Sequence record: PQ826432.1
Direction: 5' to 3' (one strand)
Length of the DNA stretch: 61,452 nucleotides
DNA from: a phage
Position numbers and translations under genes: made by a program. A model generated the notes under the pieces. The model was not told the DNA's origin, did not search any database, and worked only from the letters and a program-made list of their open reading frames with translations. Below are positions 579 through 6,458 of the stretch, one piece after another (position 1 is the stretch's first letter; each line of letters begins with the position of its first letter).

Positions 579-2684
579 TTAAACTTTCTCCCTCATCTGA
601 CCATCTGTTAATACCCGATTCCATACTCTAAGGTTTCGTATGTGTCCATATAATTTACTTGAATCGGAATGTCTTCCACCTATTTCTACTAGCGAGTCCG
701 AGTCCGTTCCTTTCCATGTAAAACCGTGTGAGGTCCCCCCCTTATTCCCATTAACAAATGAGGTGACATCTCCATTACCACTAAAAATAAAACCAAATAC
801 ATGTGAAGAAAATTGTTTTTCAAATGAATAACCCCTGGACAATATAGATGATCCATCCTCATTTACCACATACACATAAGGTGTAACGGAGGTTCTGTCA
901 AATTCCGCAACAAATGCTTTTCCTCTTACGTAGTATTGGTTATTATCCATTATCATTGGGTATGTATTATCTAATTGAAAGCTATCCCAGTTAACGCTCA
1001 CTTCAGCAAGGAATGAAATATTTGTCCCTGAGAAATTATTTCTTGCAGGTATAGTAACATAATCCACAGCCCTTGTTGCAGGAGTGCTTCCCGTAATAAT
1101 GAAGGAGGATGCACAAAAACCCTTTTCAAATTGCGGAGTACAAAATGATATTGTATCCCCAACTTGCAAGTTATCCCCGTTAGAGCCGCGAGCATAGTTA
1201 ATACTCCCAATCATGGCACCTGCAATATCAGAAAATTTACATGTTATTTCAACTTTCAGCCATCCATTATCTTCTTTGATGATTCTGTGTGTTACAGTTC
1301 CTCTAGCTTCTAGTGTATATGTCACCTCCCCTGTGTCGCATGACACTATAGATCTTGCAACAAGAATAAGGGCATTATCTTCCCCTAACGCATAGAATTG
1401 AGGAATTATGGAAATATTAGTTGCTTTCACTCTAATAGATAAGGTTGCGTATTCGTTCTGTTCACAATATATGTTGTTATTGTATTCGCAATAAAATAGT
1501 GATGGTGTATCACCTTGACCGTTTTCATTTGCGGTTGCGGTAGTATATGTAAATCCATATTTATCAACGCCGTAGGTAACGTCGCTACGATACTTATCAC
1601 TATTCAATGAAGATGGGTCATTGCTGTAAGTTATGTGGTTTGTCCTCTGCCCTTCAATTAAGAGTCCTTGCTTTTCAAATCTAGGTTCATCTATACCGGC
1701 AATACAAAACTCACCGTGCTTATTTATGTATGTTGCATTTGATGCACGCGAGAAGCTAACAACCTTATCAGAAGGCATTGTAATAACATCTTCACCAACT
1801 GTTATTTTCTTATAGCCTGGCGAGTAACCTGCAAGCATATCAAGCGAGTCATTAAATGGGATCCACACGTCAGGGAAAGGTTGAAGATCCGGAGCCCTGT
1901 TAGCTGCAACTTCCGCACGGTCTGCTTCTGCCTTTGCACGATCCGCGTCGTTTTTAGCTGCGGTTGCGCTTGTACCTGCGTTGCTTGCTTGTTTTCCAGC
2001 TTCGGTGGCGCTATTGCTTGCTTGTGTAGCAGACGCGGCAGCGGCGTCTTTTAGCGCGGTAGTTTCCGTTACTGCACTGTCCTTAATACCCTGTGTGTCT
2101 GCTTTTAACTGCTCAACGTCAGATTTTAGACCTTGAATTGTGGTCACAGCTTGTGATGCAGTATTAGCGGAACCAGCAGCGCCAGCCTGTGCTTGTTTAG
2201 CAGCGTCTTCGCTAGCTTTAGCATCATTTTTATAGACAAGTGCATCCGAAGCAGATTGAGCAGCCGAAGCCTTACTATTGCGAGCGTCCGTAGCATCTGC
2301 GTTTGCCGCCGCAGCAGAGCGACCAGCTTGCAAAGCATATTCTTCAGAGTTAGCTACAAGTTGTTGGACTTGTTTAATAACGTCCGGAGTTAATTCTTCT
2401 GGTGCCCAGTTAATTAAATAACCGTTCAGCGAACCTTCAGGGCTGTCGGAATAAATGACGATCTCACCAGCTTTATAAGGCTCAAGACCCTGCGGCCCAA
2501 TGATTACTTTGTAATGCCCCGCTTGTACAGTTACATTATAAGCACCTTCTCCATCTGTACGAAATACAGCCTCGCTACCATTAAGAACGGTAATTGTGTT
2601 CCCTTTTGCTAAAAGAGCAACGGTAGCGTTAACAATCGGTTTATTTAAACCATCTGTCAAAATACCATATAAACGAGTTGCCAT
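579..2684 (-). CDS. tail fibre protein (Ala-rich coiled-coil shaft, beta-rich C-terminal domain)
   Basis: ORF track 579..2714; start moved to ATG at 2684 (AGAGG SD; track start is TTG); composition typical of phage fibres. Confidence 0.65.
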   Translation of the reverse strand: MATRLYGILTDGLNKPIVNATVALLAKGNTITVLNGSEAVFRTDGEGAYNVTVQAGHYKVIIGPQGLEPYKAGEIVIYSDSPEGSLNGYLINWAPEELTPDVIKQVQQLVANSEEYALQAGRSAAAANADATDARNSKASAAQSASDALVYKNDAKASEDAAKQAQAGAAGSANTASQAVTTIQGLKSDVEQLKADTQGIKDSAVTETTALKDAAAASATQASNSATEAGKQASNAGTSATAAKNDADRAKAEADRAEVAANRAPDLQPFPDVWIPFNDSLDMLAGYSPGYKKITVGEDVITMPSDKVVSFSRASNATYINKHGEFCIAGIDEPRFEKQGLLIEGQRTNHITYSNDPSSLNSDKYRSDVTYGVDKYGFTYTTATANENGQGDTPSLFYCEYNNNIYCEQNEYATLSIRVKATNISIIPQFYALGEDNALILVARSIVSCDTGEVTYTLEARGTVTHRIIKEDNGWLKVEITCKFSDIAGAMIGSINYARGSNGDNLQVGDTISFCTPQFEKGFCASSFIITGSTPATRAVDYVTIPARNNFSGTNISFLAEVSVNWDSFQLDNTYPMIMDNNQYYVRGKAFVAEFDRTSVTPYVYVVNEDGSSILSRGYSFEKQFSSHVFGFIFSGNGDVTSFVNGNKGGTSHGFTWKGTDSDSLVEIGGRHSDSSKLYGHIRNLRVWNRVLTDGQMREKV

Positions 2685-2808
2685 TTTTACCTCTTGTTTC
2701 GCAGAGTTGATCAATTAATGGATGCACTATGGCATACAAATATGGTAAATTAAATTAGAATATAAAACAATATTGTCTATCATCTTTAACCACATTGTTG
2801 GAGTAATT

Positions 2809-3774
2809 ATGCCAGAGGGTATTTATATAAACTACAATGACGGCAGGCCTGCAATGCAGATAACAGCAGGATTACGCGCCCCGTCTTTTTGCGCCAACTT
2901 CAATCAACGCTGTCAATCCGATAAAACTCTAACCATCAATACACCTTTAACGCCGGGATCGCAGCTTATCGTTGTTATGACTAACCCCGTTGAAGTATTA
3001 GAAGTATTTGATCAGACGCTAGTTATCCCTGATCCAATGTATGTAACGTCTGTAACTCGAAACGGTGACGGTGGGGTGACGTTGCGAGGCGCGGATGGAC
3101 TTGGCGCTTATAGTGGATTGCCGCAATGGGCAGGGGTAATTATGGAAGTGTTACCTGTAGGAACGCGAAACGAGGGTCTATTTGTAGCTAACTCCACGGA
3201 CTTCACAGCAATATCCAACGCAGCCTTTCTCATGACTTGTCAGTATTCCCAGTACGTATGGGTTAACGGCAGTATGCCATTACCTGTCGGTGGTGTTCCG
3301 TTTGCTCGCTGGAACGACCCTAACGTATCAGTAGGTTTTGATGGTTCGAATATTATCGTTCGCAACGCAGCATATGGTGGAATTGATGACGTATCAGCTT
3401 CTGTTGGGATGGAATTAGTAATATTTAATAACACTCCCCCACAGCCTGGTGATGGTATTACCATGACGAACAGCGCGGGGCAGGTTACGTTCTCCACGGT
3501 TAAGAAGCCTTTTGTATTCAACGGAACAGTAGATCTTAGCGCGGGCTGGCAAAATATTGGTAACAGCTTAATACAACTTGCATACACAGGCACGCTTATT
3601 GAGAACAACGGGGGTTATAATCACATTCGCATGAACGGGATTCGTATGGCGGATAATGTGGTAGGTGCTGCAAGAAACCGCGTGGTAGGCAACTACTCGC
3701 GACAACAATTCCAAATGCCCGGTCGTAACGTGGTAATCTCAACACCGCTCATAGCTATACCAAATATGTATTAA
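2809..3774 (+). CDS. hypothetical protein, opposite-strand gene inside the tail module
   Basis: ORF track 2773..3774; ATG at 2809 with GGAG SD; own terminator downstream. Confidence 0.5.
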   Translation: MPEGIYINYNDGRPAMQITAGLRAPSFCANFNQRCQSDKTLTINTPLTPGSQLIVVMTNPVEVLEVFDQTLVIPDPMYVTSVTRNGDGGVTLRGADGLGAYSGLPQWAGVIMEVLPVGTRNEGLFVANSTDFTAISNAAFLMTCQYSQYVWVNGSMPLPVGGVPFARWNDPNVSVGFDGSNIIVRNAAYGGIDDVSASVGMELVIFNNTPPQPGDGITMTNSAGQVTFSTVKKPFVFNGTVDLSAGWQNIGNSLIQLAYTGTLIENNGGYNHIRMNGIRMADNVVGAARNRVVGNYSRQQFQMPGRNVVISTPLIAIPNMY

Positions 3775-3775
3775 T

Positions 3776-3797
3776 AAACGGGGCATGCGCCCCGTTT
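3776..3797. terminator. bidirectional stem-loop between convergent genes
   Basis: 9-bp stem AAACGGGGC/GCCCCGTTT, 4-nt loop, A/T-rich flanks on both strands. Confidence 0.6.
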
Positions 3798-3806
3798 ATT
3801 ATTTAA

Positions 3807-6458
3807 TCACCAGCGTCCTACTATGACAACCCCCCCACCGGATAACGGAACGCGAATACCATTACTATCAATTGTAATACCTCCATTTCCGTTGAAACCA
3901 AATTGACCAGCGTTAGCAATGACCGTCCCTCTGACGGTAACGTTATTAAATACGCAATAACCGTCTTTTGTAATTGCCCAACCTTGATCGTTACCATTCC
4001 AGTTATTGGACTGAATAACATTACCAATCTTGGCGTTGGTGATTGAGCCATTCTCAATAAAGGCTTCTTGTAAGAAACTTTGACCGTTTTTAATAGCAAA
4101 AGCAAGCTGTGCTGCTCCCGCTACAGGATTATAAATAGCGAAGTTGTCCGCACTCACCATGAAGTAAGACTGGAATTGACCTCCGCTACCTTCTATACCT
4201 AACTGCATACCGGCGACATATTTATTACCGTTACTATCAATCTGAACTTTTTGTCCCCATTGGGCAGAGAGTTTACCATTAAGATCTGCTAATGCTTGGG
4301 ATTGTTGTTGAACTGTGACTACAACATCCCCGACACTTGTCTGAACAGAATCTATCTTGGAAGCTTGACCTTCTACCACTTTGGATAATTCTGTTACACC
4401 GTCATCAACCTTTTGCACAGTCTCCATGAGGTTTTTGAAAGTCTCAGTTTCTTGAAACTCTTTATCCATGATTTCTATAATCTGTGCGGTTTCTGCCCAT
4501 ACACGAGCTTCAACTTCCACAAACTCGGACGAGCCAAAGGCGTTGATAGTTCTTATATACCAGTAATAAGTGTGGTCATTGAGTAAGTTATTTTTCTGCC
4601 ATATAGTTCCCATACCTTCACGGGTAGCATCACGCTCAACAACATCTGTATTAGCAGATGCCAGTTTTGTTTCACCAGACGTCCAGAAATCAAATTGCGT
4701 GCTAACACTAGTCAGCTCTGCAATCTTTGGTATAAGAGTTAAAGAAAAATAACCGTTCTGTATCTCGACAGATGAAGGCGGCGGTGGAGCTTGAATATTA
4801 AACTCCAGATAAGCTTCCGGTGATATTGCACCGCTGTGAGATACAGCTTGAACGTGCGCAGTATACGCCCCACGAAGCAGCCCAGTAACACGAACGCTTT
4901 GGCCAGGGACTTGTGCGGTCCAAATAGTAACGCCTCCCTGTCGCACAGCTACGCGGTTATATGCGACTTGCCCCATGTTTGTCCAGGATAATACCCCCTG
5001 TACCACATCACTGATTTGCAATATCTGGTATTGAAGATTTTGAGGTTGAGCAACACCACCACTTGGCAAGTCTACAAGATCCGGTCTGTCCATAGGTTTA
5101 CCAATTGCATCGTCCCACATTTCCAGGAAATCTTGACGTAATGTAAGGTTAACACCACCTTTAGGGTTAAAAGACCATTTGGTAACGCGCATTTCAACAT
5201 TCTTCATGCCAATCTGCGTGATGGTAACTTTTACATACATTCCTGGACGGAACTTATAACCCTTCATGTTACAAGGGATTTCAATTGTACGTCCAACACG
5301 TTTACGACGTAGAATAATATTAGACAAACGTTGTGCCTGATATTCACTAGTTACAAAACGAAAATCCATGTCCTGAGTTATTTCCCCGCCATCCTTTTCC
5401 ACCCATTCCTTAACCACAACTGGAGGGAAGTCTGCTTCAACGTAGTTCTGCTTCGGATCAATAAATGTCCCTGTGATGGTGTTTGTGCGCTCCTTATAAG
5501 AAGTCTCTGGAACAATCTTAATATCCCCAGCAATACAACTTTCGTCCAGCGTCATTGTTGCTGGACCGTAATATGCGCCAACCAGAAGACCGTGTTTACC
5601 CGCCACATACGTTAGCTCGCCGCCACAAGCTTGCAACATAGCATCCAGAATTTTGGAGGGGGCTTCATCTACTTCAAATTCACCGTTAATTTTATAACGG
5701 CGCTCTGTAGAACCATCAGCGTTATTGACGTATTCATCACAGATGTTAGCAGCTTCTTTGAACTGGTCCCAGTTAATATCTTCATCTTTTCGCTTTAAAT
5801 ACGTGCGGAAGTAATCAAGTATTACTAAAGCTGCATTATCGCTAAATATGGTATAGCCAGAACGAGGATCATATACACGGCGTCCTCTTTTAAGAAGCTT
5901 AATGTTTGGCAAACCAGAAGGGAATTTTTCTGCATTAAATTTAAAGCTAATGCGAAGCCATGCAATCCCTTTCCCAATCATATCCTCTTTCCAGGAAGGG
6001 CAATTGCTTAACATGAATGGATCTACAGTCTGACGGTCGTTATGAAATTCCCAAGTAACATACTGTTCGAAAGTCTGTACAAGATCATCCCCAAGCCAAA
6101 TATCACCAATCCCCTCCAATGGATGTGAAGCTACAACAAGCGCCATATGCAGGAGTTCGTCTTCGTCTTGATCACCAGGCTGCTCCTCGGCAAACGTCAT
6201 AACACCGGAAGCAACCGTTGTCCCGTATACTACTGTTCGGGACGCTGCGGCTGCTCGTAAAACCTGCTTACGCTCTTGTTGGCCTTTATAAGCATTAAAG
6301 TTCATATTAGGTGTCTTAGTTAAAAGAGCACCTGCCGCAGTTGCAGCCATACCAATAGCCAAAGCTACGCCCGTAGCAATCCACCCCGCCGCAGCGGCAG
6401 CGGAAGCACCTAAAGCTATTGCTGCTCCAATTATTGCTGGTGGCATTAGACCCTCCAA
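3807..6458 (-). CDS. tail tip / host specificity protein, lambda J-like
   Basis: 883 aa; segments YYWYIRTINAFGSSEFVEVEA and FNIQAPPPPSSVEIQNGYF recall lambda gpJ by memory; position after minor tail genes; true start uncertain. Confidence 0.75.
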   Translation of the reverse strand: MEGLMPPAIIGAAIALGASAAAAAGWIATGVALAIGMAATAAGALLTKTPNMNFNAYKGQQERKQVLRAAAASRTVVYGTTVASGVMTFAEEQPGDQDEDELLHMALVVASHPLEGIGDIWLGDDLVQTFEQYVTWEFHNDRQTVDPFMLSNCPSWKEDMIGKGIAWLRISFKFNAEKFPSGLPNIKLLKRGRRVYDPRSGYTIFSDNAALVILDYFRTYLKRKDEDINWDQFKEAANICDEYVNNADGSTERRYKINGEFEVDEAPSKILDAMLQACGGELTYVAGKHGLLVGAYYGPATMTLDESCIAGDIKIVPETSYKERTNTITGTFIDPKQNYVEADFPPVVVKEWVEKDGGEITQDMDFRFVTSEYQAQRLSNIILRRKRVGRTIEIPCNMKGYKFRPGMYVKVTITQIGMKNVEMRVTKWSFNPKGGVNLTLRQDFLEMWDDAIGKPMDRPDLVDLPSGGVAQPQNLQYQILQISDVVQGVLSWTNMGQVAYNRVAVRQGGVTIWTAQVPGQSVRVTGLLRGAYTAHVQAVSHSGAISPEAYLEFNIQAPPPPSSVEIQNGYFSLTLIPKIAELTSVSTQFDFWTSGETKLASANTDVVERDATREGMGTIWQKNNLLNDHTYYWYIRTINAFGSSEFVEVEARVWAETAQIIEIMDKEFQETETFKNLMETVQKVDDGVTELSKVVEGQASKIDSVQTSVGDVVVTVQQQSQALADLNGKLSAQWGQKVQIDSNGNKYVAGMQLGIEGSGGQFQSYFMVSADNFAIYNPVAGAAQLAFAIKNGQSFLQEAFIENGSITNAKIGNVIQSNNWNGNDQGWAITKDGYCVFNNVTVRGTVIANAGQFGFNGNGGITIDSNGIRVPLSGGGVVIVGRW

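What the first reader, a model, noticed from the sequence alone, without database searches (positions are those of the whole stretch)
2809..3797. Opposite-strand gene with its own terminator inside the tail-fibre module
Seen: 2809..3774 is the only plus-strand gene in about 27 kb of minus-strand structural genes, lying between the J-like gene and a tail fibre, with a GGAG SD and a bidirectional terminator. The protein is Gly/Asn/Thr-rich with no recognised motif and no obvious signal peptide. Inference: moron-like insertion, possibly host-range or exclusion related.
Basis: partly seen in the sequence, partly recalled or inferred. Interest (0 to 1): 0.45.

Follow-up and report, generated by a model that had tools for sequence, protein, structure and literature searches.

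The report
Phage receptor-binding protein gene for LptD
The opposite-strand gene is not a passenger insertion: it encodes the tail-tip protein these small phages use to attach to the bacterial outer-membrane protein LptD, and this gene family and locus have already been described and solved structurally.

Summary
ORF 2809..3774 (+), 321 aa, has a GGAG Shine-Dalgarno sequence and a strong two-way hairpin at 3772..3801. It is the only opposite-strand gene in the ~28 kb minus-strand block.

The "moron" reading does not hold. The protein is a full-length Pfam DUF6453 member. It is 76% identical over 320 residues to the receptor-binding protein (RBP) of phage Oekolampad, which was solved by cryo-EM bound to the LptDE lipopolysaccharide translocon (PDB 9RPT). 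It is 94% identical to the homologue in ChristophMerian, a phage shown experimentally to depend on LptD. The AlphaFold2 model matches 9RPT chain C (TM 0.89 by target length).

The position next to J, convergent with J and sharing one terminator, recurs in Dhillonvirus, Rogunavirus, Nonagvirus, Seuratvirus and phage mEp021. In prophages the gene follows J on the same strand. [quoted passage not shown] 2021.

Close backbone relatives carry a different cassette in this slot: a longer J plus a 77-aa lipoprotein. The exchange unit runs from the last ~30 codons of J through the terminator to the RBP gene.

One small oddity remains. This phage and the other LptD-class Queuovirinae lack the Rtp45-type superinfection-exclusion lipoprotein that precedes the RBP elsewhere.

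Verdict: already known, low interest.

The parts
2809..3774 (+). Receptor-binding protein gene (321 aa; DUF6453 / Rtp44 / RBPOeko family, LptD class)
   Evidence: Pfam PF20051 E 2.6e-131. PDB 9RPT_C by sequence: E 1.3e-163, 76% identity over residues 2-321. AlphaFold2 model (pLDDT 84.7) against 9RPT_C: Foldseek E 2.7e-33, TM 0.89 by target length. 94.1% aa identity to the ChristophMerian homologue.
2800..2803 (+). Shine-Dalgarno GGAG, 5 nt before the ATG
   Evidence: Read directly from the sequence; invariant in five Queuovirinae.
2685..2808 (.). Intergenic region between the divergent lateral tail fibre gene and the RBP gene; presumed divergent promoters, not identified with confidence
   Evidence: Nearly invariant from about 2730 to 2808 in five Queuovirinae whose RBP proteins differ by up to 34%. 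The scan found no sigma-70 match of 9/12 or better inside it. The best candidate by eye is CATACA-N17-TAGAAT at 2733-2761 (8/12), which is inference only.
3772..3801 (.). Hairpin terminator shared by the convergent RBP and J genes (bidirectional)
   Evidence: -20.5 kcal/mol, z -4.9. Terminators are annotated on both strands at the same place in SA126VB, and at the equivalent place in Rogue1 and mEp021.
3807..3899 (-). Last ~30 codons of J: class-specific C-terminal tail co-inherited with the RBP, presumed RBP docking segment
   Evidence: J is 96% identical to Dru_SM1 J up to residue 853 of the 883-aa ORF translation, and the alignment stops there. Nucleotide similarity to Oekolampad runs 2831-3852, i.e. 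across the RBP gene and terminator into the J 3' end. The C-terminal motif FGF.G...I...G..V.L..GG.V.VG.W is shared with Oekolampad and Rogue1 J.
3900..6446 (-). Body of the J-like tail tip protein (879 aa; true start ATG 6446)
   Evidence: Pfam Phage_Tail_Tip, Ig_J_second and Phage-tail_3; phrog_31. The length matches SA126VB_20.
579..2684 (-). Lateral tail fibre gene (true start ATG 2684, not TTG 2714); neighbour of the finding, not part of the RBP cassette
   Evidence: Pfam phage_tail_N covers residues 11-144 of the TTG-started ORF and Laminin_G_3 lies at the C-terminus. The start position matches the SA126VB_22 annotation.

Best explanation
The gene encodes the dedicated receptor-binding protein of the central tail fibre of a Queuovirinae (Seuratvirus/Nonagvirus-type) siphophage.

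The protein is an all-beta, two-sandwich molecule. Its conserved N- and C-terminal 'base' is expected to dock non-covalently on the class-specific C-terminal tail of the J-like tip protein. Its loop-bearing 'tip' is expected to insert into the extracellular opening of the outer-membrane LPS translocon LptDE. By analogy with the solved homologue, that means the open state of LptD, with contacts to extracellular loops EL3-5 and EL11. Binding would give irreversible adsorption and trigger DNA ejection.

The gene lies on the opposite strand, convergent with J, and shares one bidirectional terminator with it. It therefore needs its own promoter in the conserved 124-nt spacer it shares with the divergent lateral tail fibre gene.

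The last ~30 codons of J, the terminator and the RBP gene behave as one exchangeable host-recognition cassette.

Shown here: family membership, fold, synteny, cassette boundaries. Shown by others for close homologues: LptD dependence and the LptDE complex. Inferred: docking on J, presence in the virion, the promoter.
For: Sequence and fold
- Pfam DUF6453 at 437.7 bits.
- 76% identity over the full length to PDB 9RPT chain C, 'LptDE bound by the RBP of Oekolampad phage'.
- AlphaFold2 model with pLDDT 84.7 and pTM 0.85, all-beta, TM 0.89 to 9RPT_C by target length.
- Gln299, which hydrogen-bonds LptD Ser350 in the solved complex, is conserved.

Experimental link to LptD
- 94% aa identity to ChristophMerian bas19_0020 and 66-67% to the FritzHoffmann and VogelGryff homologues. 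All three phages lose infectivity on lptD loop-deletion mutants (PMC8594841).

Synteny
- The J <- | -> RBP arrangement occurs in Oekolampad, Rogue1, mEp021 and the three BASEL Queuovirinae.
- The gene sits 4-14 nt after J on the same strand in 73 of 80 IMG/VR loci and in an E. coli prophage.

Cassette behaviour
- J identity to Dru_SM1 breaks at the last 30 residues.
- SeppeHuegi and Dru_SM1, which are 92-94% identical in the backbone, carry instead a longer J plus a 77-aa lipoprotein.

Docking base
- The invariant columns of the family alignment cluster at residues 1-25 and at the C-terminal P-N-M-Y. This fits the published mapping of conserved residues to the tail-proximal base (PMC13035648).
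Against: - No experiment exists on this particular phage. Receptor use is extrapolated from homologues at 66-94% identity.
- 78 residues differ from RBPOeko. I could not map them onto the interface because the interface residue list sits in a figure I could not read.
- Physical presence in virions and attachment to J have not been shown for any family member in the papers I read. The annotation 'virion structural protein' for mEp021_80 is unverified.
- No convincing promoter was found.
- The partner exclusion lipoprotein usual for this module is missing.
Confidence: 0.92

Rival explanations
1. It is a tail-tip receptor-binding protein of the same family, but it is tuned to a receptor other than LptD, or it needs a second receptor as well. 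Bas01 is an example: it needs both NupG and LptD.
For: The DUF6453 family spans 33-98% identity across phages of Klebsiella, Salmonella, Shigella and Citrobacter prophages, so specificity need not be uniform. 78 substitutions separate this protein from RBPOeko, with lower conservation in residues 41-60, 241-260 and 281-320. Dual-receptor cases are reported (bioRxiv 10.64898/2026.04.02.716166).
Against: The protein is 94% identical to the ChristophMerian protein, and that phage is fully blocked by lptD loop deletions. The preprint reports that within-family identity above 30% tracked LptD use. The dual receptor of Bas01 is attributed to a special J C-terminal domain, not to the RBP.
Confidence: 0.05
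2. It is a moron or accessory membrane protein, as the first reader proposed and as the PHROG/RefSeq label 'membrane protein; moron, auxiliary metabolic gene and host takeover' suggests. On this reading it is expressed independently to exclude other phages or alter the host surface, and it is not part of the virion.
For: It lies on the opposite strand with its own ribosome-binding site and terminator. phrog_1265 is filed under 'moron'. The gene is missing from some close relatives.
Against: It has no signal peptide, lipobox or hydrophobic segment (maximum KD19 1.13). The homologue is a soluble protein that binds LptDE from outside the cell. In most loci the gene is co-transcribed directly after J. 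Its G+C content equals that of its neighbours. Relatives lacking it carry another host-recognition cassette in its place, not an empty site. Exclusion in this module is the task of a separate 6-kDa lipoprotein.
Confidence: 0.02

Closest known systems
RBPOeko (bas18_0025) of Escherichia phage Oekolampad, PDB 9RPT/9RPW/9RQI (Dunbar et al., PNAS 2025, PMC12685063)
   Same: Same length (321 aa), 76% identity end to end, same predicted fold, same position convergent with J across a shared terminator, and a similar J C-terminal tail.
   Different: The host phage is a Queuovirinae rather than a Dhillonvirus. There are 78 substitutions. Oekolampad has the exclusion lipoprotein bas18_0026 directly upstream in the same operon, and this window has none.
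[quoted passage not shown] 2021, PMC8594841; Black et al. 2025, PMC13035648)
   Same: A variable locus next to the gpJ homologue that predicts the terminal receptor. The LptD allele is an ORF of 930-966 bp. The window's gene matches the Rtp-like Rogue1 gp39 (Rtp44 homologue) at 42% identity over the full length.
   Different: Identity to the Drexlerviridae members is only 40-42%. The Rtp45-type lipoprotein is absent here.
Phage T5 pb5 (RBP) and Llp (exclusion lipoprotein) acting on FhuA
   Same: Same logic: a separate monomeric RBP at the tip of the central fibre binds an outer-membrane protein. The tail-proximal part is poorly ordered in both solved complexes.
   Different: Unrelated fold and sequence, and a different receptor. 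T5 keeps its exclusion lipoprotein; this phage has none detectable.
Lambda-type J with a fused C-terminal receptor-binding domain
   Same: This alternative solution occupies the same slot in close relatives. SeppeHuegi (J 1040 aa) and Dru_SM1 (J 983 aa) share the J body with this window (72% and 96% identity).
   Different: Here J is short (879 aa) and receptor binding is delegated to a separate protein. Those relatives also carry a 77-aa opposite-strand lipoprotein.
Phage morons (e.g. lambda lom and bor)
   Same: An independently terminated gene on the other strand inside a late operon.
   Different: It is linked to J in all 90 or so related loci examined, has no compositional anomaly, and has a structural role in adsorption.

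Membership tests
LptD-class RBP of small siphophages (DUF6453 / Rtp44 / RBPOeko) | Sequence membership in Pfam PF20051 over the whole domain | tested here: met
   437.7 bits against a cut-off of 25; residues 4-297 match profile positions 1-290 of 291.
LptD-class RBP of small siphophages (DUF6453 / Rtp44 / RBPOeko) | Full-length homology to the experimentally characterised member | tested here: met
   phmmer against PDB: 9RPT_C, E 1.3e-163, residues 2-321 aligned to 2-321.
LptD-class RBP of small siphophages (DUF6453 / Rtp44 / RBPOeko) | All-beta fold of two lectin-like sandwiches matching the solved RBP | tested here: met
   AlphaFold2 pLDDT 84.7. Foldseek to 9RPT_C: E 2.7e-33, TM 0.72 by query and 0.89 by target, rmsd 2.6 A. 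No other PDB hit below E 0.3.
LptD-class RBP of small siphophages (DUF6453 / Rtp44 / RBPOeko) | Encoded directly next to the gpJ homologue | tested here: met
   32 nt separate the RBP stop from the J stop. The same arrangement occurs in six annotated relatives.
LptD-class RBP of small siphophages (DUF6453 / Rtp44 / RBPOeko) | Cognate class-specific C-terminal tail on J | tested here: met
   The last ~30 residues resemble those of Oekolampad and Rogue1 J and differ from Dru_SM1 and SeppeHuegi.
LptD-class RBP of small siphophages (DUF6453 / Rtp44 / RBPOeko) | Infection depends on LptD, and the protein binds LptDE | not testable with these tools
   Shown for ChristophMerian (94% identical RBP), FritzHoffmann, VogelGryff and Oekolampad (PMC8594841, PMC12685063), but not for this phage.
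LptD-class RBP of small siphophages (DUF6453 / Rtp44 / RBPOeko) | Protein present at the tail tip of virions | not testable with these tools
   Needs virion proteomics or cryo-EM of the tail tip.
Complete RBP + exclusion module (Rtp44 + Rtp45 type) | Small periplasmic lipoprotein gene immediately upstream of the RBP gene | tested here: not met
   tblastn with the SE proteins of Oekolampad and Rogue1 gave nothing better than E about 2 in the whole window, and no credible lipobox ORF was found on either strand. It is also absent from the other LptD-class Queuovirinae.
Moron | Autonomous transcription unit (own promoter and terminator) inside a late operon | tested here: inconclusive
   The terminator is present. 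No consensus promoter was found.
Moron | Function dispensable for the virion and lytic cycle; insertion at an otherwise intact junction in relatives; often deviant composition | tested here: not met
   The homologue is the adsorption protein. Relatives without it have a different recognition cassette and a longer J, not an empty junction. G+C is 0.44-0.47 against 0.41-0.48 in the flanks.

The most novel reading that the evidence does not exclude
All LptD-class Queuovirinae examined, including this window, carry the RBP without the Rtp45/SEOeko-type exclusion lipoprotein that precedes it in Dhillonvirus, Rogunavirinae and mEp021. No lipoprotein-like ORF exists anywhere in the 61-kb window. Either these phages do without receptor masking, perhaps because the RBP binds only a rare open state of LptDE, or they use an unrecognised, non-homologous exclusion factor.
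Probability: 0.35. Interest if true: 0.3.

Novelty: already known. Interest (0 to 1): 0.1.

Why it matters
For this window it mainly corrects an annotation. The 'hypothetical / membrane protein / moron' label should read 'LptD-binding receptor-binding protein'. The phage's terminal receptor can then be predicted as LptD from sequence alone. That is useful for phage-cocktail design and for building resistant production strains, for example with lptD EL11 deletions. It does not open a new question. The missing exclusion lipoprotein in Queuovirinae is a minor loose end.

Tried and rejected
- Exclusion lipoprotein by homology. I searched the whole window with tblastn using Oekolampad bas18_0026 and Rogue1 gp40. 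Nothing scored better than E about 2.
- Exclusion lipoprotein by signal. Two lipobox scans covered all ORFs of 30-200 aa on both strands, including GTG/TTG starts and nested ORFs. The only hits were implausible ones nested inside other genes.
- Promoter. The scan found no sigma-70 match of 9/12 or better in the spacer 2685-2808. Its only plus-strand hit lies inside the coding region and is below chance expectation. I therefore name no promoter.
- Terminator scanner. It missed the real hairpin, which I confirmed by folding instead.
- Composition test for horizontal insertion. No anomaly was found.
- tRNA and Rfam scans of the window. Both were empty.
- Antisense ORF 3240..3608 (122 aa) inside the RBP gene. 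I treated it as spurious because it has no support from any annotation of relatives.
- Literature search for 'DUF6453'. It returned one unrelated mention. The relevant papers were reached through the fold hit and through LptD/RBP search terms.
- J-RBP complex model.

Full report
**What is there**

The window is a Queuovirinae siphophage genome. The region 2500-4000 is 94-96% identical to Escherichia phages phiG7, ECP2304, SA126VB and SA80RD and to 'Aeromonas' phage SD04. The replication half is 92-95% identical to Seuratvirus phages such as KS_A8 and SeppeHuegi.

ORF 2809..3774 on the plus strand encodes 321 aa. The upstream TTG at 2773 is not the start. All 40 aligned homologues and the solved protein begin at the ATG-encoded M-P/G-x-G-I.

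- GGAG lies at 2800-2803, 5 nt before the ATG.
- The stop codon opens a 13-bp hairpin at 3772-3801 with a CGGGGC/GCCCCG core. It folds at -20.5 kcal/mol, z = -4.9, and none of 200 shuffles matches it.
- T-rich runs follow the GC core on both strands. The J stop codon lies 5 nt beyond the hairpin, at 3807-3809.
- The consensus scanner missed this hairpin, probably because the A/T-rich extension of the stem consumes the T tail. The authors of the SA126VB record annotated terminators on both strands at the same spot.

All other credible genes from 312 to about 28.7 kb are on the minus strand. In SA126VB, genes 01-29 of the structural block share one strand, with this gene the sole exception. Its only error is 'no recognised motif': the protein is a textbook member of Pfam DUF6453 (437.7 bits).

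**What it is**

PHROGs files the family (phrog_1265) as 'membrane protein' under 'moron', and several RefSeq records repeat 'membrane protein'. That label is not supported.

- The protein has no signal peptide, no lipobox and no hydrophobic stretch. The maximum 19-residue Kyte-Doolittle mean is 1.13.
- An AlphaFold2 model built on 41 homologues is all-beta, with pLDDT 84.7 and pTM 0.85.
- Foldseek against the PDB returned a single significant hit. It is 9RPT chain C, 'Cryo-EM structure of the open state of Shigella flexneri LptDE bound by the RBP of Oekolampad phage': E 2.7e-33, TM 0.89 normalised to the target, rmsd 2.6 A.
- By sequence the match is E 1.3e-163, with 76% identity from residue 2 to residue 321.

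The paper behind that entry (PMC12685063) shows that RBPOeko inserts deeply into the extracellular mouth of an open LptDE. The interface is about 1,700 A^2 and has 20 hydrogen bonds to LptD, mostly to loops EL3-5 and EL11. LptD point mutations Y671N and D352Y abolish both binding and infection. Gln299 of RBPOeko, named there as a contact to Ser350 of EL4, is conserved in the window's protein.

**Link to receptor use in closer relatives**

Maffei et al. 2021 (PMC8594841) defined a 'bona fide RBP locus' next to the gpJ homologue of small siphoviruses. They showed that seven phages sharing one allele of it are all blocked by lptD loop deletions. The seven include ChristophMerian and FritzHoffmann (Nonagvirus), VogelGryff (Seuratvirus) and Oekolampad (Dhillonvirus).

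The window's protein is 94.1% identical to the ChristophMerian homologue, 98.4% to SA126VB's, 66-67% to those of VogelGryff and FritzHoffmann, 42% to Rogue1 gp39 (the Rtp44 homologue) and 33% to that of mEp021. A 2026 preprint reports that within-family identity above 30% tracked LptD use. Black et al. modelled the same ORF in OzMSK and verified LptD dependence. Phage Msk appears among my tblastn hits at 40% identity.

**Synteny and orientation**

The opposite-strand placement is not peculiar to this genome. The RBP gene is convergent with J, with a terminator between them, in six annotated phages: Oekolampad, Rogue1, mEp021, ChristophMerian, FritzHoffmann and VogelGryff.

A scan of IMG/VR kept 80 loci encoding a relative:

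- In 73 of them, the relative (52-57% identical) starts 4-14 nt after the J stop on the same strand. Most appear to be prophage-derived contigs.
- Five Dhillonvirus-like contigs have the convergent arrangement plus an upstream lipoprotein.
- One 60.7-kb Queuovirinae-like contig has the convergent arrangement without a lipoprotein.
- In one locus the RBP gene is cut by the contig end.

An E. coli chromosomal prophage shows the same co-directional layout. Tight linkage to J in either orientation marks a tail gene, not a passenger. The G+C content of the gene (0.44-0.47) matches its flanks, and only the GC skew flips, as expected for the other coding strand.

**The exchange unit**

The J protein of the window is 96% identical to that of Seuratvirus Dru_SM1 up to residue 853 of the 883-residue ORF translation (849 of the real 879-aa protein). 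The alignment ends there. Dru_SM1 J runs on to 983 aa and SeppeHuegi J to 1040 aa. Both phages carry a 77-aa lipoprotein (MK..L.L.ACG) on the opposite strand in the slot.

Conversely, nucleotide similarity between the window and the otherwise unrelated Oekolampad runs from 2831 to 3852. That covers the RBP gene, the terminator and the last ~15 codons of J. The final ~30 residues of J (FGFNGNGGITIDSNGIRVPLSGGGVVIVGRW) resemble those of Oekolampad and Rogue1.

The cassette is thus J tail + terminator + RBP. The J tail is the obvious candidate for the RBP docking site. The RBP's invariant residues cluster in positions 1-25 and at the C-terminal PNMY. This matches the published observation that conserved residues map to the tail-proximal base. 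The N-terminal 20 residues have low pLDDT in the monomer model, and the tail-proximal part is disordered in the cryo-EM map. Docking on J remains inference.

On the other side, the 124-nt spacer up to the divergent lateral tail fibre gene (true start ATG 2684) is almost invariant from about 2730 to 2808 in five Queuovirinae. Their RBP proteins differ by up to 34%. The spacer presumably holds both promoters and serves as a recombination linker. No sigma-70 match of 9/12 or better lies in it, so the promoter is not identified.

**What is missing**

In Oekolampad, Rogue1/Rtp and mEp021, a 73-81-aa lipoprotein gene sits immediately upstream of the RBP gene in the same orientation. Rtp45 was shown to bind the periplasmic side of LptDE and push EL4 outward, which blocks RBP binding.

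The window has no room for such a gene. It has no tblastn match to either lipoprotein (best E about 2) and no credible lipobox ORF anywhere on either strand. The same holds at this locus for SA126VB, ChristophMerian, FritzHoffmann, VogelGryff and an IMG/VR Queuovirinae contig. I found no comment on this in the papers read. It is a minor loose end rather than a discovery.

**Verdict**

The gene is an LptD-class receptor-binding protein. Its family, locus and mechanism were described in 2021-2025, with a solved complex for a 76% identical homologue. Novelty: already known. Interest: low.

Noticed in passing
window 2685-2808 and the whole window; L004-L006, L019: LptD-class Queuovirinae carry the RBP without the Rtp45/SEOeko-type exclusion lipoprotein found directly upstream in Dhillonvirus, Rogue1 and mEp021. 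No homologue and no credible lipobox ORF exists anywhere in the 61-kb window.
   Followed up: partly
L020-L092 (IMG/VR), L011-L012: In 73 of 80 related viral loci and in an E. coli prophage, the DUF6453 gene lies on the same strand 4-14 nt after the J stop. The inverted, convergent orientation is seen in the virulent small siphophages (Dhillonvirus, Rogunavirus, Queuovirinae) and in mEp021.
   Followed up: partly
window 2730-2808: The spacer upstream of the RBP gene is almost invariant in five Queuovirinae although the adjacent RBP proteins differ by up to 34%. No consensus sigma-70 promoter is detectable, so the reason for the conservation (regulatory element or recombination linker) is open.
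   Followed up: partly
L008 4769-5002; L010 3810-4043: Close backbone relatives Dru_SM1 and SeppeHuegi have, in the same slot and also on the opposite strand, a 77-aa lipoprotein (MK..LAL.L.ACG...) together with a J protein 100-160 residues longer. This is an alternative host-recognition cassette.
   Followed up: partly
window 2809-3774: The PHROG (phrog_1265) and RefSeq label for this family, 'membrane protein / moron', is contradicted by the lack of any hydrophobic segment and by the solved soluble homologue. The annotation is probably propagating in error.
   Followed up: yes
window 2684 vs 2714; 6446 vs 6458: The mechanical ORF starts (TTG) overshoot. The lateral tail fibre most likely starts at ATG 2684 (AGAGG Shine-Dalgarno; the Pfam domain begins at residue 11) and J at ATG 6446, matching the SA126VB annotation.
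   Followed up: yes
window 2809-3774 vs L002, L005, L006: The window's RBP is closer to that of the Dhillonvirus Oekolampad (76%) than to those of the fellow Queuovirinae FritzHoffmann and VogelGryff (66-67%). This indicates exchange of the cassette between phage genera.
   Followed up: partly
window 579-2684 and 312-578: The lateral tail fibre has a concanavalin-A-like lectin C-terminal domain (Laminin_G_3). It is followed by an 88-aa protein of unknown function (phrog_1361) that recurs after the fibre gene in SA126VB and Dru_SM1, and may be a fibre chaperone.
   Followed up: no
window 1-61452: The whole window has no tRNA genes and no Rfam family at gathering threshold.
   Followed up: yes
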